This document shows positions 1 to 34,590 of a DNA stretch of 34,590 nt, piece by piece. The stretch lies in IMG/VR virus record IMGVR_UViG_3300029951_000077; one strand, 5' to 3'. Both the position numbers and the translations under genes were made by a program. Positions within the stretch are counted from its first letter, which is position 1; every line of letters starts with the position of its first letter. This DNA is from a virus. The notes under the pieces are model-generated. The model was given only the letters and a program-made list of their open reading frames with translations. It was not told the origin of the DNA and did no database searches.

Positions 1-133
1 TGCGGCTACCGCGTCTGGGGGCTACGGTGCGGCTACCGCGTCTGGGCGCTACGGTGCGGCTACCGCGTCTGGGTACTCTGGTGCGGCTACCGCGTCTGGG
101 GGCTACGGTGCGGCTACCGCGTCCGGGTACTAC
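1..133 (+). repeat. 27-bp in-frame tandem repeat, continuation of the array at 34460-34590
   Basis: Units GGTGCGGCTACCGCGTCTGGG+6 variable nt start at 26, 53, 80 and 107; the first unit is truncated by the window edge. Each unit encodes GAATASG-x-x. Confidence 0.95.
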
Positions 134-26202: not shown

Positions 26203-26912
26203 CCAACCCGGGGAAGCAACGCCCGAAGGGACGCGACTGGGTCAACCGTGACCTCGCGGACATCAAACGCACCGTCCGTGAGAACGCTGCAGCCCGCACC
26301 CTCGGCGCTTCGGAGATCGGCAACGGTGGCACCCTGAAAGTTGACGGCTCCCTTGTTGTCACCGGCTCCATCAGCGTCCCCGGGACGCTGAGTTCGGCCG
26401 GCGCCGTCAGTGCTGGTACGACAGTCACCGCTGGGACCACCGTCACAGCCGGCACGGACGTTGACGCCGGCGGTAACGTCAACGCCACGGGAAGTGTGAA
26501 CGGCAACACAGGCAACTTCCCCGGGGGTGTCAACAGCACCGGCGTCTATAACAACCTGGTGAGCACGGGCGCGTACAAAATCCAGTACATCAACGTTTCG
26601 GGCGCAATGGGGTACGTTCCCTCGTCTCGGCAATTCAAGCAGGAAATCGAGACCGCTCCCGATGTGAAGGAGGCAGCCCTCGCGCTGGAAGTCTTCACGT
26701 TCCGGTACAAAGCCGCTGTGGAAGAGCTCGGGGATGCTGCCGCACTCGAGTGGGGCGTAATGGCCGAGGACGTAGAGGCGCTCGGGCTTTACTGGCTCGT
26801 TGATTACGACGAGGAAGGCAAACCGCTCGGTATCAAATACGAACGACTGGCCCTAGCGTTAATTCCACTCGTGCAAGATCACGAGCGCCGACTGAGAGCG
26901 GCTGGACTTTAG
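26199..26912 (+). CDS. tail fibre with a Gly/Thr/Val repeat shaft and a C-terminal S74 intramolecular-chaperone domain
   Basis: Shaft: GTTVTAGTTVTAGTDVDAGGNVNATGSVNGNTGNF. Then SSRQFKQEIETAP...FRYK...EWGVMAEDVE...GIKYERLALALIPLVQD, the S..R.K / auto-cleaving chaperone pattern of endosialidase-type fibres. Confidence 0.8.
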   Translation: MTNPGKQRPKGRDWVNRDLADIKRTVRENAAARTLGASEIGNGGTLKVDGSLVVTGSISVPGTLSSAGAVSAGTTVTAGTTVTAGTDVDAGGNVNATGSVNGNTGNFPGGVNSTGVYNNLVSTGAYKIQYINVSGAMGYVPSSRQFKQEIETAPDVKEAALALEVFTFRYKAAVEELGDAAALEWGVMAEDVEALGLYWLVDYDEEGKPLGIKYERLALALIPLVQDHERRLRAAGL

Positions 26913-27424
26913 TCGCAGACGGACTCCGTGCCGTTCCATGTCAGAGCGCTTGACGCGCATGCTGTGGAGTCCGGTTCGTCCGTTCCGGGAACATCGGGCG
27001 GAACAGCGCCAGCGGGAAGACCCTGATCGTTCGTCGAAGCGGTGTGGTGGTCCTTGGCTGCTTCGGCTGCCTGCACAGCGGCTTGTGCCGCAGCGGCCTG
27101 CTGTGCGGCGAGTTCGGCGGCCGCTGCGGCCTCGACCCGCTGCTCGGTGACGATCGCTTGAGCACCATCCGCATCTGACTGGTCGAGGGTGGTCTGCTCG
27201 TCAGCGGTGGTCGCATCCCCCAACGGTGCGGCAGGAACGTCGGCTTGCGCTTTCGCCAACGCTGCGATGTGCGCGGTCTGCTGCGCGGTGGCGATCATCG
27301 GCGCGGCGATGAACACACCAGCAACGATGACCGCGACAGCGGCGATCGACCCGAGCGTGATTTTGAGTCCACGGTGGGTGCGCTTGACTACTGCGTTCTG
27401 CGGGTACTCGGTGAGTTCGTCCAT
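26909..27424 (-). CDS. single-pass membrane protein with an Ala/Gln-rich ectodomain and a C-terminal Cys pair (reverse-strand accessory gene)
   Basis: 171 aa with GC3 clearly high in this frame. TM segment ITLGSIAAVAVIVAGVFIAAPMI, low-complexity EAAAAAELAAQQAAAAQAAVQAAEAAK, C-terminal TACASSALTWNGTESVCD. Its stop codon overlaps the tail-fibre stop (TTAG). Confidence 0.75.
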   Translation of the reverse strand: MDELTEYPQNAVVKRTHRGLKITLGSIAAVAVIVAGVFIAAPMIATAQQTAHIAALAKAQADVPAAPLGDATTADEQTTLDQSDADGAQAIVTEQRVEAAAAAELAAQQAAAAQAAVQAAEAAKDHHTASTNDQGLPAGAVPPDVPGTDEPDSTACASSALTWNGTESVCD

Positions 27425-27680: not shown

Positions 27681-28616
27681 ATGCCCACCCTTGAAGATGC
27701 CGCCCACGCGTGGGCGCTCGCGAATCCTGAAACACCGACACACACGTCCTGGCTGGATGGGTGCGCCCGGTGCATGTGGGACTTCAATGCTTCGTTCACG
27801 AAGAACTGGGGACCCAAAGGCAACATCACCACCGCCATGTATGTCATGGCGAACTCGGCCGTGTTCGAACCGGTGAACGTCAACGACATCATGCCGGGGC
27901 GTTTCGTCTGGATCTCACTGTCGGGCGTTCCCGCGGGCCATGTCGGCATGGTCGTGTCGGGCCAAGGTCTCGACGCTCTCGTCTTCTGGGCGACCGCGAC
28001 GCTCACCGTCGAGTGGGCACCGTACCTCGGACTTGGAACGGTCCGCGATTATCTGGCCCGGAAGAAGGGCTCCAAGTTCGTTGGCGCGTCTGAGGACTAC
28101 GCCGGCGCTATCCCGAACCTGTCCGCCTTCTCTGGCGGCGGTGTAACCCCAATCCCGGAGGACGACATGGCATACACAATCCTTGCAGCGAACGACGCAC
28201 CCCTACTGAATACGTGGGCGTATATCGGTTTACCCCTGTCGTTCGTTTTCTCGGCTGATGCAGGGACGAACCTCGCGCAAAAGCAGCTCGTCGCGGCCAT
28301 CAACGGGATCGCCGACGTGAACGCTCTCGCGGTCACACCGATCTCCTCGGTAGGCATGCAGAACGCGATCGGCCTGATCAATGCGCAGAACCCGGCGACG
28401 ACCCTCTCGGCTGCGCAGATCACCGCGCTCGGACAGACAGTCGCCGCAGGCATCACCATCCCAACCCCAGACCTTTCGTCTCTTGCGAAGGGCACGGACC
28501 TCACCGCCCTCGGTGTGGCTGTCGGCAACGATCTCGCAGCACTCGCGAAGCAGATCCCCACACCTGCTCAGAACGGTGCGGCAGCTCGAGCAGCGATCGT
28601 CGCACCCGCTAGCTGA
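27681..28616 (+). CDS. endolysin, NlpC/P60- or CHAP-like cysteine peptidase N-domain plus an Ala-rich C-terminal region
   Basis: ATG 27681 follows GAAGGCGG. Cys...His pattern: WLDGCARCMWDF ... GRFVWISLSGVPAGHVGMVV. It is the first gene of the lysis block. Confidence 0.6.
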   Translation: MPTLEDAAHAWALANPETPTHTSWLDGCARCMWDFNASFTKNWGPKGNITTAMYVMANSAVFEPVNVNDIMPGRFVWISLSGVPAGHVGMVVSGQGLDALVFWATATLTVEWAPYLGLGTVRDYLARKKGSKFVGASEDYAGAIPNLSAFSGGGVTPIPEDDMAYTILAANDAPLLNTWAYIGLPLSFVFSADAGTNLAQKQLVAAINGIADVNALAVTPISSVGMQNAIGLINAQNPATTLSAAQITALGQTVAAGITIPTPDLSSLAKGTDLTALGVAVGNDLAALAKQIPTPAQNGAAARAAIVAPAS

Positions 28617-28981
28617 TGACCGACGACGAGCCTAAGGGTGGGATTCCGCTCGTCCTGTACCGACTGGACCAGATCGAAAAGAAACTCGATGACGCGGACA
28701 AAAAATATGTCCCCATCACCATCTACGACCTGAACCAGAAGAACATCAGCGACAAATTCGGGGACGTCATCAAAGACGCCGCTTTCGAGGTCGCACGCCT
28801 CGACGCCCGTGTGGACAAACTCACCGAAGCGACAAGCGCTGTGCAGGATGCGCAGACAGCCAAGAGGTCGAAATGGTTCTACGGCTTCGTCATCGGCGGC
28901 TTCACGATCGTTGGCGGCGGGGTCGTGGCGCTCATCGTCTTCGCGATCGAAGCAGCATCCCATCTGGTGGTGACGCATTGA
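28616..28981 (+). CDS. tail-anchored membrane protein (holin-like candidate)
   Basis: 121 aa: cytoplasmic coiled coil, then one C-terminal TM (WFYGFVIGGFTIVGGGVVALIVFAI). TGATG coupled to the lysin. Confidence 0.55.
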   Translation: MTDDEPKGGIPLVLYRLDQIEKKLDDADKKYVPITIYDLNQKNISDKFGDVIKDAAFEVARLDARVDKLTEATSAVQDAQTAKRSKWFYGFVIGGFTIVGGGVVALIVFAIEAASHLVVTH

Positions 28982-29601
28982 CGAAAACCCCTTGGCGTCC
29001 CCGCGGTGCTCTCGGTCTGATCATCGCCCTCGTGGTGCTCCTCGTCGCCGGCCTCACAGCTGATGTGACTTTGCATGTGGTCGAGGCGCAACGGATCTCG
29101 AACCTGCAGTCCATCATCCAAACCACCCGCACGAACGATGCGCAGTCGTACAACTCGCTGCTCGGAAAGTACTCGGCTGTCTACAAGCAGCTCGCGGCGA
29201 CGGGTGCGAAAACGAACGAGACGAAACCGGAAGACATCGCACCACTCCCCGGACCAACCGGCACACCAGGCGCGTCCGGTTCCGCCGGTGCCACGGGGGC
29301 GTCCGGTTCGGACGGTGTCGGTATCGAGTCGGTGCAATGCAACTCGGATGGGACTTGGGCGTTCCTGTACACGAACGGTGACACGCAGACCGTGTCCGGG
29401 TCTTGTATCGGCGCTACCGGTGCGACGGGCCCAGCCTCCACCACACCGGGGCCCGCCGGCGCGGACGGTGTCGACGGTACCGATGGCGCTGACGGCCAAC
29501 CGCCCCTGTCGTGGACGTACGTCGACGATCTCGGCGTCACCCACTCGTGCACCCGCACGGACTCTTTCGATCCCATCAACCCGACATATCAATGCAGCTA
29601 G
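28978..29601 (+). CDS. type-II membrane protein with two collagen-like G-X-Y tracts and four Cys
   Basis: TTG 28978 overlaps the upstream TGA (TTGA); the frame is open from 28873, but that part overlaps the previous gene. TM LGLIIALVVLLVAGL; GXY tracts GPTGTPGASGSAGATGASGSDG and GATGATGPA..GPAGADGVDGTDGADG. Confidence 0.55.
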   Translation: MTKTPWRPRGALGLIIALVVLLVAGLTADVTLHVVEAQRISNLQSIIQTTRTNDAQSYNSLLGKYSAVYKQLAATGAKTNETKPEDIAPLPGPTGTPGASGSAGATGASGSDGVGIESVQCNSDGTWAFLYTNGDTQTVSGSCIGATGATGPASTTPGPAGADGVDGTDGADGQPPLSWTYVDDLGVTHSCTRTDSFDPINPTYQCS

Positions 29602-29608
29602 GAGCATC

Positions 29609-30604
29609 ATGAACCCCCCTTGGACTCGTACCGCGTTTCCGGCGATCGCCGGCTTCGTCATAACCGCTCTCCTGAACTACTTCACTCCACTCAATGGGTG
29701 GCTTGGCGCGCTCGGAGCGTTCGGCATCACCCGCGATACCATCACCCTTGGTCTGGCTGCGCTGATCGGTATCGGTTACCACCAGCTCGCGGTCGCTCTA
29801 GGGAAGAGATGGCCGAAGGTCGAAGCGTGGATGCTCGGATCGTCTCTGGTCCCCGTCTACATTGCGGGCAGCGCACGTAAGCGTTTCCCCCTGACGGCGC
29901 TGTTCGACCCGAGCTCGCTGGACTCGCTGATCATCGACGCAGCAAAGTTCGCGCTCCCACCCACGCCGGCCGGGTTTGTGGGGACGAAGCGTAAGCCGAC
30001 CGGGATGCTCGCGAACGATTCGATCGGTGACTGTGTGGTCGCGATGATGCTCCATGCCATCATCGTTATCACCGGTACGGCGAAGTTCACCAAAGCGGAA
30101 GCGATCAAGCTGTACTCAACGATCGGTGGTTACGTCCCCGGTAAGCCGAACACCGACCAGGGACTCGACCCTGTTGCAGCCGCGAAGTACTGGCAGAAGC
30201 ACGGCATCGTCGACGCAGCGGGTGTGAAGCACGAGCTCGTCGCTTACGGTGTCATCAAGCTCGGCGACTTCAACGCTCTCCGCGCGGCCCTGAACCTCGC
30301 CGACGAAGGCGTTGCTGTGGGTGTGTCCCTGAACTTGCCTTACTCGGCGCAGGACCAGTTCCCGACCCGCAAATGGTCTGTCGTCACCGGTTCACGCTCA
30401 CAGGTTGAGGGCGGTCACGAAGTCCTCGGATGCAACGACGACGGCGAGAACACGGGCCTCGGCACGTGGGGTTCAGAGGTGCAGGCGAACCGCCCGTTCA
30501 TGGAGAAGTACTCGTCCCTGTGGCTTGTGCTCATCACCGATGCCGCGCCCGAGAATGTGAAGACGCAGGCTGCCGCGCTGGTGGCTGCGATTAACGCCTC
30601 GTGA
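29609..30604 (+). CDS. membrane-anchored putative papain-fold cysteine peptidase
   Basis: ATG 29609 follows AGGAG. N-terminal hydrophobic helices (AFPAIAGFVITALLNYF, LGALGAFGI, ITLGLAALIGIGY), then a Cys/His/Trp triad-like pattern: NDSIGDCVVAMMLHA ... EGGHEVLGCNDDG...GTWGSE. The peptidase call is tentative. Confidence 0.5.
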   Translation: MNPPWTRTAFPAIAGFVITALLNYFTPLNGWLGALGAFGITRDTITLGLAALIGIGYHQLAVALGKRWPKVEAWMLGSSLVPVYIAGSARKRFPLTALFDPSSLDSLIIDAAKFALPPTPAGFVGTKRKPTGMLANDSIGDCVVAMMLHAIIVITGTAKFTKAEAIKLYSTIGGYVPGKPNTDQGLDPVAAAKYWQKHGIVDAAGVKHELVAYGVIKLGDFNALRAALNLADEGVAVGVSLNLPYSAQDQFPTRKWSVVTGSRSQVEGGHEVLGCNDDGENTGLGTWGSEVQANRPFMEKYSSLWLVLITDAAPENVKTQAAALVAAINAS

Positions 30605-30687: not shown

Positions 30688-30719
30688 AACGCCCCGCTCT
30701 CTTCGGAGGGCGGGGCGTT
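30688..30719. terminator. bidirectional GC-rich hairpin between the convergent lysis operon and the FtsK-gamma gene
   Basis: AACGCCCCGCTCTC-TTCG-GAGGGCGGGGCGTT (one mismatch), followed by TTATTCGT on the + strand. Confidence 0.7.
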
Positions 30720-30727
30720 ATTCGTCG

Positions 30728-31216
30728 TTACCGTTGGGTGCGCATTCCTTCGATGACGGTGTCGAGTTGTTCACGGGTGATGAGCACGACGCGTGCGTGG
30801 ATGCCTTCTGCTTTCCCGACAACACCAGCAGTTTCGAGCCGTCCCATGAGTTCCTGCGCTTCGACGAACGGGATTCGCAATTTTCTCTGCAGGTACGAGT
30901 CGGACGCGTAGCGTGCATCCACAACGAGTCGGGATGCTGCGATGACGAGATCGAGTGTTGTCTCGTTGGGCGGTCGCGGGACCACAGCGGCGACGCGCTC
31001 AACATGGACATGCTGCGGCGCCTGCGGCTTATTTCGTCGGGTTCGAACGCTGACCGCGATGACCACGAGCGCCATCACCAACGGGATCGTGACGTACCAG
31101 AATCTGATTGACAGCCCGATGACTCCGAGCACGATCAAGATGACGAAGGCGTAGCCGAGGAGTGTCTGCTTCTGTCTGATCGTCACCAACCCCATGAGCG
31201 AGAGCATAGCGAGCAT
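30728..31216 (-). CDS. membrane protein with a C-terminal FtsK/SpoIIIE gamma (winged-helix) domain and no motor domain
   Basis: N-terminal 2-3 TM helices (LLGYAFVILIVLGVIGLSI, WYVTIPLVMALVVIAVSV). The C-terminal LDLVIAASRLVVDARYASDSYLQRKLRIPFVEAQELMGRLETAGVVGKAEGIHARVVL aligns by eye with FtsK gamma (..AS.S.LQR..RIGY.RAA.....E..GIV......REVL). The real start may be the Met at 31207 (GAGGG lies 9 nt upstream). Confidence 0.8.
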   Translation of the reverse strand: MLAMLSLMGLVTIRQKQTLLGYAFVILIVLGVIGLSIRFWYVTIPLVMALVVIAVSVRTRRNKPQAPQHVHVERVAAVVPRPPNETTLDLVIAASRLVVDARYASDSYLQRKLRIPFVEAQELMGRLETAGVVGKAEGIHARVVLITREQLDTVIEGMRTQR

Positions 31217-31290
31217 CCCTCGGGACGGCTACGGCACTTCGTAGCGGTGCCCGAAACGGTTTCACGCTTTTGTACCCCAAAATGTGGGTG

Positions 31291-31319
31291 TTGTACCCCG
31301 TCCCAATATGTCCTAAATT
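31291..31319 (+). promoter_or_regulatory. candidate promoter for the leaderless XRE-integrase transcript
   Basis: TTGTAC - 17 nt - TAAATT, ending 7 nt before ATG 31327, which has no SD. Direct repeats TTGTACCCC at 31270 and 31291; TGTCCTA at 31309 and 31319. Confidence 0.3.
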
Positions 31320-31326
31320 GTCCTAC

Positions 31327-31692
31327 ATGAGTTCAGCAGAGACTAATCCAGTCGAGATCAACTGGGACGCCGAGATCGGCGAGAAGGCGCACATGCTCAT
31401 GTGGCGTCGAGGAATCACACAAATAGCCCTAGGCGAGCAGCTCGGCGTAGACCAATCCAGCATTGCCAAGCGCCTCAAGGGCAAACGGAAGTGGACCACC
31501 GGCGAAGTGGTGGCACTCGCCCGCGCGCTCCGCACAACCGTCGCGTTTCTCTACGGCGAGACCAGCAACCCAGACGGCCCCGATAACGGTTCTTCGGAAA
31601 CTCCCAGCAAAATAACGTTTGGATTACTTGCAAACGATCGCCCGGACTCAGTAGCCGACCTAGATTATTACCGCTCCCGTAAGGCCGGATAG
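31327..31692 (+). CDS. XRE/Cro-CI family HTH repressor-like protein
   Basis: HTH: GITQIALGEQLGVDQSSIAKRLKGKRKWTTGEVVALARAL. It is divergent from the membrane gene and directly upstream of the integrase. No SD before the ATG (probably leaderless). Confidence 0.8.
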   Translation: MSSAETNPVEINWDAEIGEKAHMLMWRRGITQIALGEQLGVDQSSIAKRLKGKRKWTTGEVVALARALRTTVAFLYGETSNPDGPDNGSSETPSKITFGLLANDRPDSVADLDYYRSRKAG

Positions 31693-31701
31693 GTCCCCGA
31701 A

Positions 31702-32556
31702 ATGAGGCCTGTCGCCTACCTGCATCAGGCCGCTAACGTTCCTCCCGATCAGGGGAACCCGCCAATGCTGACGCTCTACGAAACGTTTCTATCCCGCCGC
31801 TTCGCACCAACCACAGTGCGACTACGCATGTTCTGGATACGCAAGTTCGCATCCGCCCATGATTTGCGCGCGGCCGGCATAGACGACCTGTACGACTACC
31901 TCGATTCGAATCCCGACTGGACACCGAACACGAAGCAGACGATCGTCTCCACACTGCGCGGCTTCTACAAATGGGCCGTCTCGGCGGGGCAACTTGAATC
32001 GAATGTCGCGCTGGATCTCATGCGCGTGCGAGTCCCACGCCGACCCTCACGCATCGCAACAGACGACACCATCCTGGAGGGCATCAGCAACTCGTCGCTG
32101 CCGGAGGAAGCCATGCTCCGTCTGGGCGCTGAGGGCGGTCTGCGGGTAGCCGAAATCGCGGGTCTGCGCACAGCGGACCGTGACGGCGAATGGCTCACCG
32201 TCACAGGGAAGGGCGGCACCATCCGCACCGTCCATTTAGAGGATGAACTGCTCGAGGTACTTCGCACGCTCGAAGTCACAACCGCCAGGTGGGGCTTCTA
32301 CTTTCCCGGCCGCGTCCACGAGCCCGTCGCGCCCTCGACGGTGTGGCGTCACGTCCGAGCTCTCACCGGTTTGAACACTCACGCCCTTCGGCATCGCGCC
32401 GGCACATCCGTCTACCGGAACACCGGTTTCGATCTGCGGTTAGCGCAGGAATTCCTCGGCCACGCCTCGCCGACGACGACAGCTATCTACGTCCATGTGG
32501 ACCGTGAGGACATGTCTCGCGCTTCTCAGGCGACACGTTTACGACGCGCCGCATAA
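31702..32556 (+). CDS. int: tyrosine recombinase/integrase, short XerC/D-like
   Basis: Catalytic pattern: LRVAEIAGLR ... HALRHRAGTSVY ... FLGHASPTTTAIYVHV (R, H-x-x-R, H, Y). The more likely start is ATG 31765 (AGGGGA 8 nt upstream), giving 263 aa. There is no long arm-binding N-domain. Confidence 0.9.
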   Translation: MRPVAYLHQAANVPPDQGNPPMLTLYETFLSRRFAPTTVRLRMFWIRKFASAHDLRAAGIDDLYDYLDSNPDWTPNTKQTIVSTLRGFYKWAVSAGQLESNVALDLMRVRVPRRPSRIATDDTILEGISNSSLPEEAMLRLGAEGGLRVAEIAGLRTADRDGEWLTVTGKGGTIRTVHLEDELLEVLRTLEVTTARWGFYFPGRVHEPVAPSTVWRHVRALTGLNTHALRHRAGTSVYRNTGFDLRLAQEFLGHASPTTTAIYVHVDREDMSRASQATRLRRAA

Positions 32557-32561
32557 AAGAT

Positions 32562-32591
32562 TTGACAGATTAGTCCTTTTTGTCCTATCGT
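32562..32591 (+). promoter_or_regulatory. candidate early promoter (TTGACA - 18 nt - TATCGT) for a leaderless transcript starting at ATG 32599
   Basis: Perfect -35 hexamer at 32562-32567; -10-like TATCGT at 32586-32591. The ATG lies 8 nt downstream with no SD. AGTCCT/TGTCCT repeats 10 bp apart overlap the spacer and -10. Confidence 0.45.
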
Positions 32592-32598
32592 TTCTGTT

Positions 32599-32808
32599 AT
32601 GGCAATAGAGACTAATCAGGACAAAACAGACTGGCTGCGTCCGGCCGAAGTTGCCGCCGAATTGGGCGTCAGCACCAAGACCGTTACCCGCATGGATGCC
32701 CGCGGCGACCTCACCCCGCTGCGTCTGCCGTCCGGTCACCGCCGTTACAGCCGCGCCGAGGTTGAAGCGCTCGCGCATCCACTCAACCCGAGCCCCGAAG
32801 CCGCCTGA
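32599..32808 (+). CDS. xis: MerR/excisionase-family HTH protein (excisionase or Cro-like early regulator)
   Basis: WLRPAEVAAELGVSTKTVTRMDARGDLTPLRLPSGHRRYSRAEVEAL, the typical excisionase-type HTH_17 pattern. It is adjacent to int. Confidence 0.75.
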   Translation: MAIETNQDKTDWLRPAEVAAELGVSTKTVTRMDARGDLTPLRLPSGHRRYSRAEVEALAHPLNPSPEAA

Positions 32809-34060: not shown

Positions 34061-34590
34061 ATGACTTCCCCGAAGAAAACTCCCCCGCTGGTCGCCTACA
34101 AAGGCTTCGACCAGAACATGCAATGCCGTGGCTTCCAGTACAAGGAAGGCGAAACGTATGAGCAGGTTGACCCTGCTGTTCTCTGCAAGACCGGTTTCCA
34201 TGCCGTCACAATGCCGTTGGATGTCCTCCGCTACTACCCGGCCAACAAGTCCGTGTTTCACCTGGTGGAGCTTGAAGATGTTGCGGACGGTAAAGAGTCC
34301 GACTCGAAGGTCGCGGGTCGGAAGATCAAGATCGGTGCCCGCATTGAACTGCCTGCGCTGATCAAAGCGCAAGTCGATTTCGTGTTCTCGAACTCGAAGA
34401 AGGTTGCTGGTGCGTCGTCTGCGAAGGCGAACGCGGCGGTTGCTGCCGAGGTTGAGTCTGGTGCGGCTACCGCGTCTGGGCGCTACGGTGCGGCTACCGC
34501 GTCTGGGTACTCTGGTGCGGCTACCGCGTCTGGGTACTCTGGTGCGGCTACCGCGTCTGGGTACTCTGGTGCGGCTACCGCGTCTGGGGG
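34061..34590 (+). CDS. N-terminal part of the tandem-repeat protein (DUF7666-like N-domain plus GAATASG-xx nonapeptide repeats); continues at 2-292
   Basis: YKGFDQNMQCRGFQYKEGETYEQ..VLCKTGFHAVTMPLDVLRYYPANKSVFHLVELEDV..SKVAGRKIKIG matches the KGF..C.GFQY..G..Y....C..GFHA...PLDV..YY pattern I associate with the DUF7666 family. It runs off the window end in the phase that continues at position 2. Confidence 0.8.
   Translation, partial: MTSPKKTPPLVAYKGFDQNMQCRGFQYKEGETYEQVDPAVLCKTGFHAVTMPLDVLRYYPANKSVFHLVELEDVADGKESDSKVAGRKIKIGARIELPALIKAQVDFVFSNSKKVAGASSAKANAAVAAEVESGAATASGRYGAATASGYSGAATASGYSGAATASGYSGAATASG
34460..34590 (+). repeat. 27-bp in-frame tandem repeat (units at 34460, 34487, 34514, 34541, 34568)
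   Basis: Perfect 21-nt core GGTGCGGCTACCGCGTCTGGG plus a 6-nt variable tail (CGCTAC, TACTCT x3, GGCTAC across the junction). Confidence 0.95.

What the first reader, a model, noticed from the sequence alone, without database searches (positions are those of the whole stretch)
30728..31216. Motor-less, membrane-anchored FtsK-gamma domain protein beside a XerC/D-like phage integrase
**What the sequence shows.** This minus-strand gene sits in the classic lysogen-expressed position, divergent from the repressor-integrase operon. It encodes 2-3 TM helices, a linker, and a ~65-aa C-terminus. The C-terminus aligns by eye with the FtsK/SpoIIIE gamma winged helix: ASDSYLQRKLRIPFVEAQELMGRLETAGVVG...ARVVL versus the E. 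coli [31 protein letters not shown]...REVL. There is no Walker A or translocase domain anywhere in the ORF.

**Established background.** Gamma reads polar 8-mers (KOPS/SRS). In E. coli it also directly activates XerD catalysis at dif.

**Why it is interesting.** The phage recombinase about 500 bp away is a short Xer-like enzyme without an arm-binding domain. A phage that carries its own membrane-tethered gamma next to a Xer-like integrase is an arrangement for which I know no described function.

**Hypotheses (inference).**
- A self-contained gamma-activated integration, excision or dimer-resolution module.
- A decoy that interferes with host FtsK/Xer.
- Superinfection exclusion by capturing incoming DNA at the membrane.
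Basis: partly seen in the sequence, partly recalled or inferred. Interest (0 to 1): 0.7.

Follow-up and report, generated by a model that had tools for sequence, protein, structure and literature searches.

The report
Membrane-anchored FtsK-gamma protein in actinophage
A temperate phage of actinobacteria encodes a small membrane protein whose cytoplasmic end is a copy of the DNA-reading "gamma" head of the bacterial FtsK DNA pump without the pump; it is a rare new architecture of unknown function that looks like an exchangeable prophage accessory gene, not a helper of the neighbouring integrase.

Summary
ORF 30728-31216 (-) encodes a two-helix membrane hairpin, a flexible linker of about 25 residues, a true FtsK-gamma winged helix and one extra C-terminal helix. 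Evidence for gamma: Pfam 51.4 bits against a cut-off of 30.6, and an AF2 model that superposes on solved gamma domains at 1.0-1.8 A. There is no ATPase.

It belongs to a rare family, at least 11 clusters among 1.84 billion representatives, all apparently from actinobacterial prophages. The hairpin is unrelated to FtsK's own membrane domain.

The gene is its own transcription unit between the lysis cassette and a rep-int cassette. The integrase is not a Xer orthologue. It is a BPs/Brujita-type arm-less integrase.

The proposed gamma-integrase module is not supported:
- Family members sit beside long integrases (382 and 406 aa), a tRNA pair, or a Fic/Panacea toxin-antitoxin pair.
- The closest integrase relatives occur in phages without gamma.

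Two of three KOPS-reading residues are replaced (R1300 to E, E1303 to G). No KOPS-like motif is enriched in the phage genome.

Best reading (about 0.4): an exchangeable prophage accessory gene that acts at the inner face of the membrane on DNA or a gamma partner, most plausibly in exclusion or defence. Function is untested.

The parts
30728..31216 (-). TM-gamma gene. Maximal ORF 162 codons including stop at 30728-30730. Candidate starts at 31216, 31207 (gene callers, 159 aa) and 31195 (matches homologue N-termini, 155 aa).
31034..31180 (-). Helical transmembrane hairpin: TM1, a conserved (Y/F)W(Y/F)(I/V)xxP turn with an invariant Trp, then TM2. Predicted topology is N-in/C-in.
   Evidence: Hydropathy. 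AF2 helices 6-31 and 33-54 at pLDDT 93-96. Family alignment. No similarity to the FtsK 4TM domain (hhalign probability 1.9%).
30959..31033 (-). Basic cluster (RTRRNK) followed by a Pro/Ala-rich linker of about 25 residues. Its length and sequence vary across the family.
   Evidence: AF2 pLDDT 55-71 with no secondary structure. Alignment gaps.
30776..30958 (-). FtsK/SpoIIIE gamma winged-helix domain (three helices plus a wing). The recognition surface reads RKLRIPFVEAQELMGRLE, against the host-type RKLRVGFAKAGRLMDLLE.
   Evidence: Pfam. PDB sequence search. Fold search. Alignments.
30734..30775 (-). Extra C-terminal helix after the wing. The corresponding C-terminal tail also follows gamma in the actinobacterial FtsK sequences of the alignment.
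   Evidence: AF2 helix 141-154. Alignment.
30688..30719 (.). G+C-rich hairpin with a 14-bp stem and a 4-nt loop, T-rich on both sides. It is a likely bidirectional terminator shared by the lysis operon and the TM-gamma gene.
   Evidence: I4
31217..31326 (.). Divergent control region between the TM-gamma gene and rep. It holds TTGTACCCC twice and TGTCCTA twice. A possible leaderless rep promoter is TTGTAC-17 nt-TAAATT (manual reading, weak). No promoter for the gamma gene was identified.
31327..31692 (+). HTH_3 (Cro/CI-type) repressor-like gene, 121 aa. The longer TTG-initiated ORF starts at 31270. Two independent contigs end inside its 3' half, at 31556 and 31622.
31702..32556 (+). Arm-less two-domain tyrosine integrase of the BPs/Brujita type, 284 aa, C-terminus ...RLRRAA.
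32562..32617 (+). Sigma-70-like promoter (TTGACA-18 nt-TATCGT) flanked by the inverted pair GATTAGTC/GACTAATC. The 11-mer AGAGACTAATC and the 8-mer TTGTCCTA occur only here and at the start of rep. This is the probable Rep-controlled early promoter.
32599..32808 (+). HTH_17/MerR-like small protein (excisionase- or Cro-like), first gene of the early operon.
27681..30604 (+). Lysis-region genes that converge on the TM-gamma gene: a 311-aa protein, a holin-like 121-aa protein (phrog_689), a collagen-like 207-aa protein, and a 331-aa membrane protein with a cysteine-protease-like domain (phrog_19005).

Best explanation
**What it is (shown).** A real gene for a small inner-membrane protein. It has an N-in/C-in helical hairpin, a flexible linker of about 25 residues, a cytoplasmic FtsK-gamma winged helix and a terminal helix. 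There is no motor. Gamma was captured from an actinobacterial ftsK 3' end and fused to an unrelated, conserved membrane hairpin. The result is a rare family found in prophages and integrated elements of Actinomycetota, with Microbacteriaceae the only named hosts.

**How it is organised (shown).** In this ~34.6-kb temperate phage it is an independent transcription unit with its own terminator. It is one of only two well-supported reverse-strand genes. It lies between the lysis cassette and a BPs/Brujita-type rep-int immunity cassette.

**What it most likely does (inferred).** It is an exchangeable prophage accessory ('moron') gene expressed independently of the lytic operons. The protein holds a gamma module within a few nanometres of the cytoplasmic face of the membrane, probably in several copies through hairpin self-association. 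There it binds double-stranded DNA, or another gamma ligand, as that DNA crosses or lies against the membrane. The most plausible pay-off is exclusion of, or interference with, incoming foreign DNA: superinfecting phage, or FtsK/TraB-type DNA transfer. It is not a dedicated cofactor of the adjacent integrase.
For: **Architecture.**
- Domain and fold.
- TM helices and charge distribution.

**Family.**
- Full-length homologues share the N-terminal motif and the WY turn.
- The hairpin is unrelated to the FtsK N-terminal domain.
- The gamma domains of several members are near-identical to the invariant actinobacterial FtsK gamma.

**Host phylum.**
- Portal relatives are all actinophages.
- Named homologue hosts are a Microbacteriaceae MAG and a Rhodoglobus MAG.

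**Independent transcription unit.**
- A convergent bidirectional terminator.
- The gene lies on the strand opposite to almost all other phage genes.
- The operator-like motifs shared by rep and the early promoter are absent from the gamma-proximal half of the intergenic region.

**Accessory position recurs across the family.**
- Beside rep/ImmA-like/int.
- Beside int and an HTH_3 gene.
- 95 bp from a tRNA-Thr/tRNA-Met pair next to host genes.
- Beside a Fic/Panacea toxin-antitoxin pair and a tape-measure fragment at a prophage end.

**Literature precedent.**
- In cluster N mycobacteriophages, all characterised prophage defences map to the variable region flanked by the lysis and immunity cassettes, and they are expressed in lysogeny (bioRxiv 10.1101/2023.01.03.522681).
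- The Charlie prophage uses a single membrane protein to exclude DNA injection by Che9c (PMC6426606).

**Design parallel.** A similar hairpin carrying an Mrr_cat nuclease lies between the CI repressor and the integrase of another prophage.

**Valency.** Three gamma domains read one KOPS and monomers bind weakly (PMC3384302). Membrane clustering would therefore matter.
Against: - There are no expression data, and no promoter was identified for the gene.
- In one homologous locus (L015) the gene follows a 75-aa ORF in an operon divergent from an HTH_3 gene. That operon could be early-lytic.
- In this phage the gene occupies the slot that cro holds in BPs.
- There is no similarity to any known defence or exclusion family: PADLOC gives nothing, and the only PHROG hits are through gamma.
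- DNA binding is unverified. Two of the three E. coli KOPS-recognition positions are replaced non-conservatively: R1300 to E and E1303 to G. This copy may therefore read something else, or bind a protein.
- The resemblance between the hairpins of the gamma and Mrr_cat proteins rests on a short motif that was itself used as the search pattern.
- Only about six informative genomic contexts exist.
Confidence: 0.4

Rival explanations
1. Recombinase regulator. The membrane-tethered gamma binds a tyrosine recombinase, as FtsK-gamma binds XerD. The partner would be the phage's own arm-less integrase or host XerC/D. Binding would activate, inhibit or spatially restrict recombination, for example by giving directionality or membrane sequestration to a 'directionless' integrase.
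For: - Isolated gamma, or a nine-residue peptide RQFRIGYNR, is enough to activate XerCD-dif (PMC3130261; PMC5052618).
- The key salt-bridge residue R1289 and R1292/I1293 are kept here.
- In E. coli, R1300A and E1303A lose KOPS reading but keep Xer activation (PMC2680272). This copy has changed exactly those positions.
- The gene is 486 bp from an arm-less integrase.
- Directionality control in arm-less systems is described as a conundrum (PMC6109161).
- Other gamma-domain proteins occur in mycobacteriophages such as Babsiella and BigNuz. From memory, these belong to clusters I and P, which also use arm-less integrases.
Against: - R1289 is invariant in essentially all gamma domains, so it does not discriminate.
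- The integrase is far from XerC/D.
- Family members sit beside 382-aa and 406-aa integrases with extra N-terminal regions, or beside no integrase at all.
- None of the 60 closest integrase-bearing phages carries gamma.
- BPs-type Int alone performs both reactions (PMC3694055).
- The gamma proteins of clusters I and P lie among the RecET/RusA genes, not beside int.
Confidence: 0.15
2. Interference with host FtsK or chromosome handling. The protein competes with host FtsK for its guide motifs or partners at the membrane, or tethers the nucleoid to the membrane in a Noc-like way. The effect would be on chromosome segregation, dimer resolution or cell division.
For: - Several family members (P0008, P0010, P0151, P0007) keep a recognition surface identical to the invariant actinobacterial FtsK gamma, RKLRVGFAK...R.
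- Free gamma deregulates Xer recombination and yields topologically complex products (PMC3130261).
Against: - This window's copy has diverged at the same surface: G to P, A to V, K to E, R to E, D to G relative to host type.
- Six of eleven members have lost both basic residues of the recognition helix.
- No benefit to a prophage is evident.
- Gamma monomers bind KOPS weakly.
Confidence: 0.12
3. A function in the phage's own DNA metabolism. The protein anchors phage DNA to the membrane for replication, partition or packaging, analogous to phi29 p16.7, and is expressed during lytic growth.
For: - The architecture (N-terminal membrane anchor, linker, small C-terminal DNA-binding domain) parallels p16.7 (my own knowledge).
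- Phages repeatedly fuse gamma to DNA-metabolism proteins: a small terminase (PMC8190038), a helicase (L100), and ~350-aa proteins beside RecET/RusA.
- In BPs the gene divergent from rep belongs to the lytic operon.
Against: - No oriented or over-represented 8-mer occurs in the phage genome apart from a coding tandem repeat.
- The gene is a single unit with its own terminator, on the strand opposite to all replication and packaging genes.
- Homologues lie at prophage edges, next to toxin-antitoxin genes or a tRNA pair.
Confidence: 0.1
4. Component of the genetic switch. The protein is a membrane-sequestered winged-helix regulator sitting in the 'cro position', acting on the shared control region.
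For: - It is divergent from rep across a repeat-rich control region of about 110 bp.
- In BPs that position is held by cro.
Against: - Gamma is not known to act as a transcription factor.
- The operator-like motifs are at rep and the early promoter, not on the gamma side.
- A separate HTH_17 gene heads the early operon.
- The position relative to repressor genes is not conserved in the family.
Confidence: 0.06

Closest known systems
FtsK/SpoIIIE gamma subdomain (E. coli 2J5P; P. aeruginosa 2J5O, 2VE8, 2VE9)
   Same: - Same Pfam family.
- Same three-helix winged-helix fold.
- Same conserved core: S-x-S-x-L-Q-R-K-L-R ... V-G ... R-x-V-L.
- Cytoplasmic location next to the membrane.
   Different: - No alpha/beta motor and no FtsK 4TM domain.
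- Anchored by an unrelated two-helix hairpin.
- The positions equivalent to the KOPS-reading residues R1300/E1303/E1306 are E/G/E.
- Encoded by a phage.
Other motor-less gamma-domain proteins of phages. Examples: the ~350-aa actinophage 'FtsK-like DNA translocase' (Babsiella gp50, MagicMan gp54); the gamma-small terminase of Bacillus phages Sam46/Sam112; tandem-gamma proteins; a helicase-gamma fusion
   Same: - Gamma has been captured by phages and used without the translocase.
- Function is unknown in every case (PMC8190038).
   Different: - Those proteins are soluble.
- They sit among replication/recombination or packaging genes.
- This one is membrane-anchored and sits at the lysis/immunity junction.
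Prophage-expressed defence and exclusion genes of actinophages (the cluster N 'central variable region'; the Charlie membrane protein that excludes Che9c DNA injection; CarolAnn gp43/44)
   Same: - Same genomic slot, between the lysis cassette and the immunity cassette.
- A small membrane protein.
- An independent transcription unit.
- The flanking immunity cassette is of the same arm-less rep-int kind.
   Different: - No sequence similarity.
- None of the described systems carries a gamma or any other DNA-binding domain.
- Neither expression nor phenotype has been tested here.
XafT, the Xer activation factor of the TLC-phi satellite phage (DUF3653)
   Same: A mobile-element-encoded factor that can replace FtsK-gamma in activating a tyrosine recombinase.
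   Different: - No homology (no DUF3653 hit).
- XafT serves an element that has no integrase of its own and exploits host XerCD at dif.
- This phage has its own integrase.
phi29 p16.7 (membrane-anchored DNA-binding protein that organises phage DNA replication at the membrane)
   Same: The design: N-terminal membrane anchor, linker, small C-terminal helical DNA-binding domain (my own knowledge).
   Different: - Different folds, and a single TM helix.
- p16.7 is an early lytic gene of a virulent Bacillus phage.
- No homology was detected.
BPs/Brujita integration-dependent immunity cassette (this concerns the neighbouring genes)
   Same: - rep is followed immediately by an arm-less int on the same strand.
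- The best structural relative of Int is 5VFZ Gp33.
- Int ends in -AA.
- Contigs break inside the 3' part of rep, at the relative position where BPs has attP.
   Different: - The gene divergent from rep is TM-gamma, not cro.
- The early operon lies downstream of int behind its own promoter.
- An excisionase-like HTH_17 gene is present.
- attP has not been located.

Membership tests
FtsK_gamma domain (Pfam PF09397) | Profile match above the curated gathering score | tested here: met
   51.4 bits against 30.6, E=8.8e-14, residues 90-147 matched to profile positions 6-63 of 63
FtsK_gamma domain (Pfam PF09397) | Three-helix winged-helix fold that superposes on solved gamma structures | tested here: met
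   AF2 pLDDT 90-97 over the domain. The top Foldseek PDB hits are 2J5P, 2J5O, 2VE8 and 2VE9, with rmsd 1.0-1.8 A and target TM-score 0.72-0.89.
FtsK_gamma domain (Pfam PF09397) | KOPS-recognition residues of the recognition helix (E. coli R1300, E1303, E1306; PMC2680272) | tested here: not met
   The equivalent residues are E, G and E. Actinobacterial FtsK gamma has R, D and E. This implies a different ligand specificity, or none.
FtsK_gamma domain (Pfam PF09397) | Sequence-specific dsDNA binding and/or activation of a tyrosine recombinase | not testable with these tools
   Needs EMSA or SELEX and recombination assays.
FtsK/SpoIIIE DNA translocase | RecA-like alpha/beta motor with Walker A/B (PF01580, PF17854) | tested here: not met
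   No Pfam hit at E<=1 and no G-x4-GK[ST] motif in the ORF
FtsK/SpoIIIE DNA translocase | N-terminal FtsK 4TM membrane domain | tested here: not met
   No PF13491 hit. hhalign of the hairpin profile against an actinobacterial FtsK N-terminus gives probability 1.9%.
XerC/XerD chromosome-dimer resolvases (applies to the neighbouring integrase) | Score above the NCBIfam equivalog cut-offs | tested here: not met
   XerC 88.1 bits against 335. XerD 72.9 bits against 329.6.
BPs/Brujita-type simple (arm-less) phage integrases (applies to the neighbouring integrase) | Core-binding plus catalytic domains only, and closest to Brujita/BPs integrases | tested here: met
   - 284 aa, with only SAM-like and catalytic Pfam domains.
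- Best PDB hit 5VFZ Gp33, E=3.5e-17.
- 353 phage records match, led by cluster G (BPs) and small Gordonia phages.
Integration-dependent immunity system | rep immediately upstream of int on the same strand | tested here: met
   rep is 31327-31692 and int is 31702-32556, a 9-bp gap.
Integration-dependent immunity system | attP inside the 3' part of rep | tested here: inconclusive
   - Two independent contigs end at 31556 and 31622 inside rep.
- No integrated form was found.
- No tRNA-like core was found.
Integration-dependent immunity system | C-terminal ssrA-like degradation tags on Int and viral Rep; no xis | tested here: inconclusive
   - Int ends ...RLRRAA, and Rep ends ...YRSRKAG.
- An HTH_17 gene follows int. 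It scores 24.2 bits on the 'excise' model against a cut-off of 28.8.
Prophage-encoded superinfection exclusion / defence genes | Position in the accessory slot of the lysogeny module (between lysis and immunity cassettes, or at a prophage edge) | tested here: met
   Window. Homologues. Literature.
Prophage-encoded superinfection exclusion / defence genes | Homology to a described defence or exclusion protein | tested here: not met
   PADLOC gives no hit for the window protein. The only PHROG hits are through gamma.
Prophage-encoded superinfection exclusion / defence genes | Expression in the lysogen and protection against other phages | not testable with these tools
   Needs a cultured host, RNA-seq and plating assays.
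XafT-type Xer activation factors (DUF3653) | DUF3653 domain | tested here: not met
   No such Pfam hit at E<=1

The most novel reading that the evidence does not exclude
The membrane-tethered gamma is a dedicated regulator of a tyrosine recombinase, either the phage's own arm-less 'directionless' integrase or host XerCD. It would use the XerD-binding face of gamma, having lost KOPS reading. It would thereby supply the spatial or directional control that arm-less integration-dependent immunity systems are thought to lack. That would be the first FtsK-independent, phage-encoded gamma-type recombinase switch.
Probability: 0.12. Interest if true: 0.85.

Novelty: new variant of a known kind. Interest (0 to 1): 0.45.

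Why it matters
- **A captured module.** Gamma is the part of FtsK that reads chromosome polarity and switches on Xer recombination. Temperate actinophages have captured it, stripped it of the motor and bolted it to a dedicated membrane anchor. This adds a distinct architecture to the unexplained set of phage 'gamma-only' proteins.
- **A tractable entry point.** The protein is small (155-162 aa), has a clear topology and sits in a compact 34.6-kb phage.
- **If it excludes foreign DNA.** That would be a new exclusion principle: a sequence-reading head waiting at the inner face of the membrane.
- **If it talks to the integrase or to Xer.** That would bear on how arm-less integrases are controlled.
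- **An annotation correction.** The actinophage proteins examined that are labelled 'FtsK-like DNA translocase' show no detectable motor domain.

Tried and rejected
1. **KOPS-like guide motif in the phage genome.** The only over-represented, strand-pure 8-mers belong to a 27-bp coding tandem repeat at the window ends. Known KOPS/SRS motifs are not enriched.
2. **Integrated prophage form, to locate attP/attB and the host.** All 47 contigs read across the two look-ups (24 for the gamma protein, 23 for the integrase; the sets overlap) show the free circular phage. No tRNA or tRNA-like core was found.
3. **Close relatives of the phage, to test whether the slot is variable.** There is no nucleotide match among deposited phages. 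The flanking 331-aa protein has no relatives in IMG/VR and only one distant phage hit.
4. **More family contexts.**
   - Five contigs were too short to help.
   - One species-representative genome only.
   - No clear TM-hairpin+gamma member in IMG/VR.
   - P0162 and P0215 turned out to be frameshift-split host ftsK genes and were discarded.
5. **'Mini-FtsK by motor deletion'.** Rejected, because the hairpin is unrelated to the FtsK membrane domain.
6. **Net charge of the gamma domain as a proxy for DNA binding.** Not discriminating: +1 here against about +2 in host gamma.
7. **Defence-system library.** No hit.
8. **Deposited gut-phage and Listeria 'phage' gamma hits.** They are real FtsK genes or a helicase-gamma fusion, not TM-gamma proteins.
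9. **AlphaFold of a gamma-integrase pair.** Not attempted. The tool takes single chains, no integrase alignment could be supplied under the input rules, and no interface metrics are returned.
10. **A correction to my own recollection.** I first recalled N1296 as a KOPS-blind residue. The literature gives R1300, E1303 and E1306.
Full report
**1. The observation**

Its codon-position GC is 0.66/0.39/0.71, like the other genes of the window.

Profile and structure evidence for the gamma domain:
- Pfam gives a single significant domain, FtsK_gamma. The score is 51.4 bits against a gathering score of 30.6, E=8.8e-14, over residues 90-147.
- A sequence search of the PDB returns the P. aeruginosa and E. 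coli FtsK gamma domains.
- An AlphaFold2 model built on a 24-sequence alignment is confident, with mean pLDDT 87.5.
- The model's best PDB fold matches are 2J5P, 2J5O, 2VE8 and 2VE9. Rmsd is 1.0-1.8 A over about 58 residues, and target TM-score is 0.72-0.89.

The model shows these elements, numbered from Met8:
- two long helices, 6-31 and 33-54;
- an unstructured, low-confidence stretch, 55-79;
- three helices plus a wing, 80-137;
- one more helix, 141-154.

Hydropathy finds two TM segments, not three. The flanks are basic: RQKQ before TM1 and RTRRNK after TM2. The turn between the helices is four residues long. By the positive-inside rule both termini are cytoplasmic (inference).

No Walker A motif and no translocase domain is present.

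The start codon is uncertain. The candidates are 31216, 31207 and 31195. The last aligns with the N-termini of homologues.

**2. The genome around it**

The window is a complete, circularly permuted phage genome.
- Its two ends carry copies of one 27-bp tandem repeat.
- In intact contigs that repeat forms a 12-copy array inside a DUF7666 gene.
- The same ~34.6-35.0 kb genome was assembled at about 100% identity in many JGI, ENA and Logan samples.
- It has no nucleotide relative among deposited phages.
- Its portal protein resembles only portals of actinobacteriophages: Streptomyces, Microbacterium, Gordonia, Curtobacterium and others.

Almost all genes are on the + strand. The TM-gamma gene and a 171-aa gene at 26909-27424 are the only well-supported reverse-strand genes.

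On the gene's 3' side, it converges with the lysis region on a 14-bp-stem hairpin at 30688-30719, T-rich on both sides. The lysis region includes:
- a holin-like protein, phrog_689;
- a collagen-like protein;
- a 331-aa membrane protein with a cysteine-protease-like domain.

On its 5' side it is divergent from three genes, in order:
- a 121-aa HTH_3 repressor-like gene, 31327-31692;
- nine bases later, a 284-aa tyrosine recombinase, 31702-32556;
- an HTH_17/MerR-like gene.

Directly after int lies a sigma-70-like promoter, 32562-32591. The 11-mer AGAGACTAATC and the 8-mer TTGTCCTA occur nowhere in the genome except at the start of rep and at this promoter. An inverted copy also flanks the promoter. 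I read this as Rep operators on rep and on the early promoter (inference). The half of the intergenic region nearest the gamma gene lacks these motifs.

**3. The integrase is not Xer**

- It scores 88 bits on the XerC model (cut-off 335) and 73 bits on the XerD model (cut-off 330).
- Its best solved relative is 5VFZ 'Gp33', E=3.5e-17. From my own knowledge this is the Brujita integrase.
- Its best phage relatives are the integrases of BPs and other cluster G mycobacteriophages and of the small Gordonia phages. In total 353 records match.

These are the arm-less 'simple' integrases of integration-dependent immunity systems. In those systems:
- rep and int are co-transcribed;
- attP lies inside rep;
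- Int and Rep carry degradation tags;
- Int alone performs both integration and excision (PMC3694055; PMC8138268).

The BPs locus shows rep, then int, with attP about 100 nt before the rep stop. How this phage compares:
- The rep-then-int order is the same.
- Int ends in -RRAA.
- Two independent contigs end inside the 3' half of rep, at 31556 and 31622.
- No integrated form was found, so attP is not located.

Unlike BPs, the gene divergent from rep here is the TM-gamma gene, not cro.

**4. A family, and where it lives**

An exhaustive HMMER search of 1.84 billion representative proteins found 1664 gamma-containing hits. Among the best 150, eleven have the same full-length design:
- an N-terminal 'MGL(V/L)TTR(Q/D)KQ' motif;
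- TM1;
- a '(Y/F)W(Y/F)(I/V)xxP' turn with an invariant Trp;
- TM2;
- a basic cluster;
- a variable linker;
- gamma.

The hairpin shows no relationship to FtsK's own membrane domain (hhalign probability 1.9%). The protein is therefore a fusion, not a motor-deleted FtsK. Only one species-representative genome carries it, a Microbacteriaceae MAG. Another copy comes from a Rhodoglobus MAG.

Informative genomic contexts:

| Locus | Context |
|---|---|
| This phage | Between the lysis cassette and the rep-int cassette |
| L014 | HTH_3, then Peptidase_M78-like, then a 382-aa integrase, then the gene |
| L015 | 406-aa integrase, HTH_3 on the other strand, a 75-aa ORF, then the gene |
| L096 | Host genes, tRNA-Thr, tRNA-Met, then the gene 95 bp later |
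| L113 | Host genes, small ORFs, the gene, then a Fic toxin and Panacea-domain antitoxin pair, then a tape-measure fragment |
| L097 | Near the edge of an element rich in HTH genes |

The common factor is the periphery or lysogeny module of an integrated element. The class of integrase is not conserved.

**5. The recognition surface**

In E. coli the stretch RQFRIGYNR (1289-1297) contacts both KOPS DNA and XerD. R1289 is the key XerD contact (PMC5052618). R1300, E1303 and E1306 read KOPS. R1300A and E1303A lose KOPS recognition but still support Xer activation (PMC2680272).

| Source | Sequence | Residues at E. coli 1300 / 1303 / 1306 |
|---|---|---|
| Actinobacterial FtsK gamma (almost invariant) | RKLRVGFAKAGRLMDLLE | R / D / E |
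| This protein | RKLRIPFVEAQELMGRLE | E / G / E |

Across the family, some members are identical to host gamma on this surface. Six of eleven have lost both basic residues of the recognition helix.

So this copy is unlikely to be a faithful mimic of host gamma. Its ligand may be a different DNA sequence or a protein. No oriented, over-represented 8-mer exists in the phage genome apart from the coding repeat.

**6. How it most likely works**

Shown:
- a cytoplasm-facing gamma on a flexible tether, fixed to the membrane;
- an independent transcription unit in the accessory slot of the lysogeny region.

Established background:
- Three gamma domains bind one 8-bp site and monomers bind weakly (PMC3384302).
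- Isolated gamma can activate XerCD-dif (PMC3130261).
- In cluster N mycobacteriophages, every characterised prophage defence maps between the lysis and immunity cassettes and is expressed in lysogeny (bioRxiv 10.1101/2023.01.03.522681).
- The Charlie prophage blocks DNA injection by Che9c with a single membrane protein (PMC6426606).

A design parallel was also found. A hairpin with the same turn motif, carrying an Mrr_cat nuclease domain (E=5e-27), lies between the CI-type repressor and the integrase of another prophage. True homology between the hairpins is uncertain, because the motif was itself the search pattern.

Inference: the protein is an exchangeable prophage accessory gene. It places several gamma heads at the inner face of the membrane to bind DNA, or a gamma partner, there. 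The most plausible purpose is to hinder incoming foreign DNA. I put this at about 0.4.

Rivals:

| Rival | Confidence | Main points |
|---|---|---|
| Regulator of the phage integrase or host Xer | 0.15 | Attractive because KOPS-reading residues are lost while R1289 is kept. Contradicted by the comparative data in sections 3 and 4. |
| Interference with host FtsK or chromosome handling | 0.12 | Fits the host-identical members, not this copy. |
| Membrane anchoring of phage DNA, like phi29 p16.7 | 0.10 | See the Rival explanations section. |
| A switch component in the 'cro position' | 0.06 | See the Rival explanations section. |

**7. Comparison with what is known, and novelty**

The domain is a member of the FtsK_gamma family. 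The protein is not an FtsK/SpoIIIE translocase. Motor-less gamma proteins in phages are already noted, with their role 'still unknown' (PMC8190038). I found them in several forms:
- ~350-aa actinophage proteins labelled 'FtsK-like DNA translocase', which show only a gamma domain in Pfam;
- the gamma-small terminase;
- a helicase-gamma fusion;
- natural tandem-gamma proteins.

A conserved membrane-hairpin anchor, and a position in the lysogeny accessory slot, have not been described to my knowledge. No Pfam, NCBIfam, PHROG or PADLOC model covers the full-length protein.

I rate it a new variant of a known kind, of moderate interest. It is rare and its function is open. It is also small, well defined and directly testable.

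Noticed in passing
window 1-126 and 34462-34587; L001 6427-6751: A 27-bp tandem repeat (12 copies in an intact contig), all on the + strand, lies inside the DUF7666 gene. That gene's length varies from 248 to 305 aa among contigs. The window is a circular genome cut inside this array. It could be a nine-residue protein repeat, or an iteron-type origin embedded in a replication gene.
   Followed up: partly
window 31327-32556: The rep-int cassette resembles integration-dependent immunity (BPs/Brujita). rep lies directly upstream of an arm-less int that ends in -RRAA. Two independent contigs break at 31556 and 31622, inside the 3' part of rep, where BPs has attP. No integrated form was found.
   Followed up: partly
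window 31309-31348 and 32562-32617: AGAGACTAATC (11-mer) and TTGTCCTA occur only at these two places in the 34.6-kb genome. An inverted GATTAGTC flanks the sigma-70-like promoter after int. These are candidate Rep operators. Both downstream genes look leaderless.
   Followed up: partly
window 26909-27424 (-): This is the only other well-supported reverse-strand gene (171 aa). It lies between the tail genes and the lysin and has no significant Pfam or PADLOC hit. It is a second candidate accessory gene.
   Followed up: no
window 29609-30604 (+): A 331-aa protein follows the holin. It has N-terminal hydrophobic segments and a C-terminal region with a 'GDC...H' pattern. It matches phrog_19005, and its single distant phage hit is annotated as a cysteine protease. 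It may be a membrane-anchored lysis-associated peptidase.
   Followed up: partly
window 28978-29601 (+) and 28879-29661 (-): A collagen-like Gly-X-Y ORF (207 aa) sits inside the lysis region. Some gene callers instead call an antisense 242-aa ORF over the same DNA.
   Followed up: no
L012 2149-3213 (Babsiella gp50); L011 2209-3249 (MagicMan gp54); L013 2173-3234 (prophi88-1 gp18, labelled 'EccC-like translocase'): The first two are annotated 'FtsK-like DNA translocase' and Pfam finds only a C-terminal gamma domain, with no motor. All three lie beside recombination or DNA-metabolism genes: RecET-type and RusA in Babsiella and prophi88-1, ParB-like and DnaQ-like in MagicMan. The annotation appears to over-state what the sequence shows. 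The ~270-aa N-terminal domain has unknown function. prophi88-1 gp18 itself was not scanned.
   Followed up: partly
P0003, P0014, P0017, P0028 (proteins); L100 1008-3098: Natural proteins made of two or three tandem gamma domains exist, mirroring the engineered '3-gamma' constructs that bind KOPS better than monomers. A gut-phage contig encodes a gamma fused to a large Walker-A-containing N-terminal region that reads like a RecD/Pif1-type helicase (by eye; not profile-tested).
   Followed up: no
L116 9974-10768; also L114, L115 and L093: A two-helix membrane hairpin with the same 'YWYVAIP' turn is fused to a coiled coil and an Mrr_cat restriction-endonuclease domain. In L116 it is encoded between a CI/S24 repressor and the integrase of a prophage. 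It is a candidate membrane-anchored nuclease for superinfection exclusion.
   Followed up: partly
L113 6539-7449: A Fic-domain toxin and a SocA/Panacea-domain antitoxin pair lie immediately next to the TM-gamma homologue P0007, at the end of a prophage remnant.
   Followed up: no
P0018, P0049, P0124 (proteins): These unrelated proteins have a single N-terminal TM helix followed by one or two gamma domains. Membrane anchoring of motor-less gamma has therefore probably arisen more than once.
   Followed up: no
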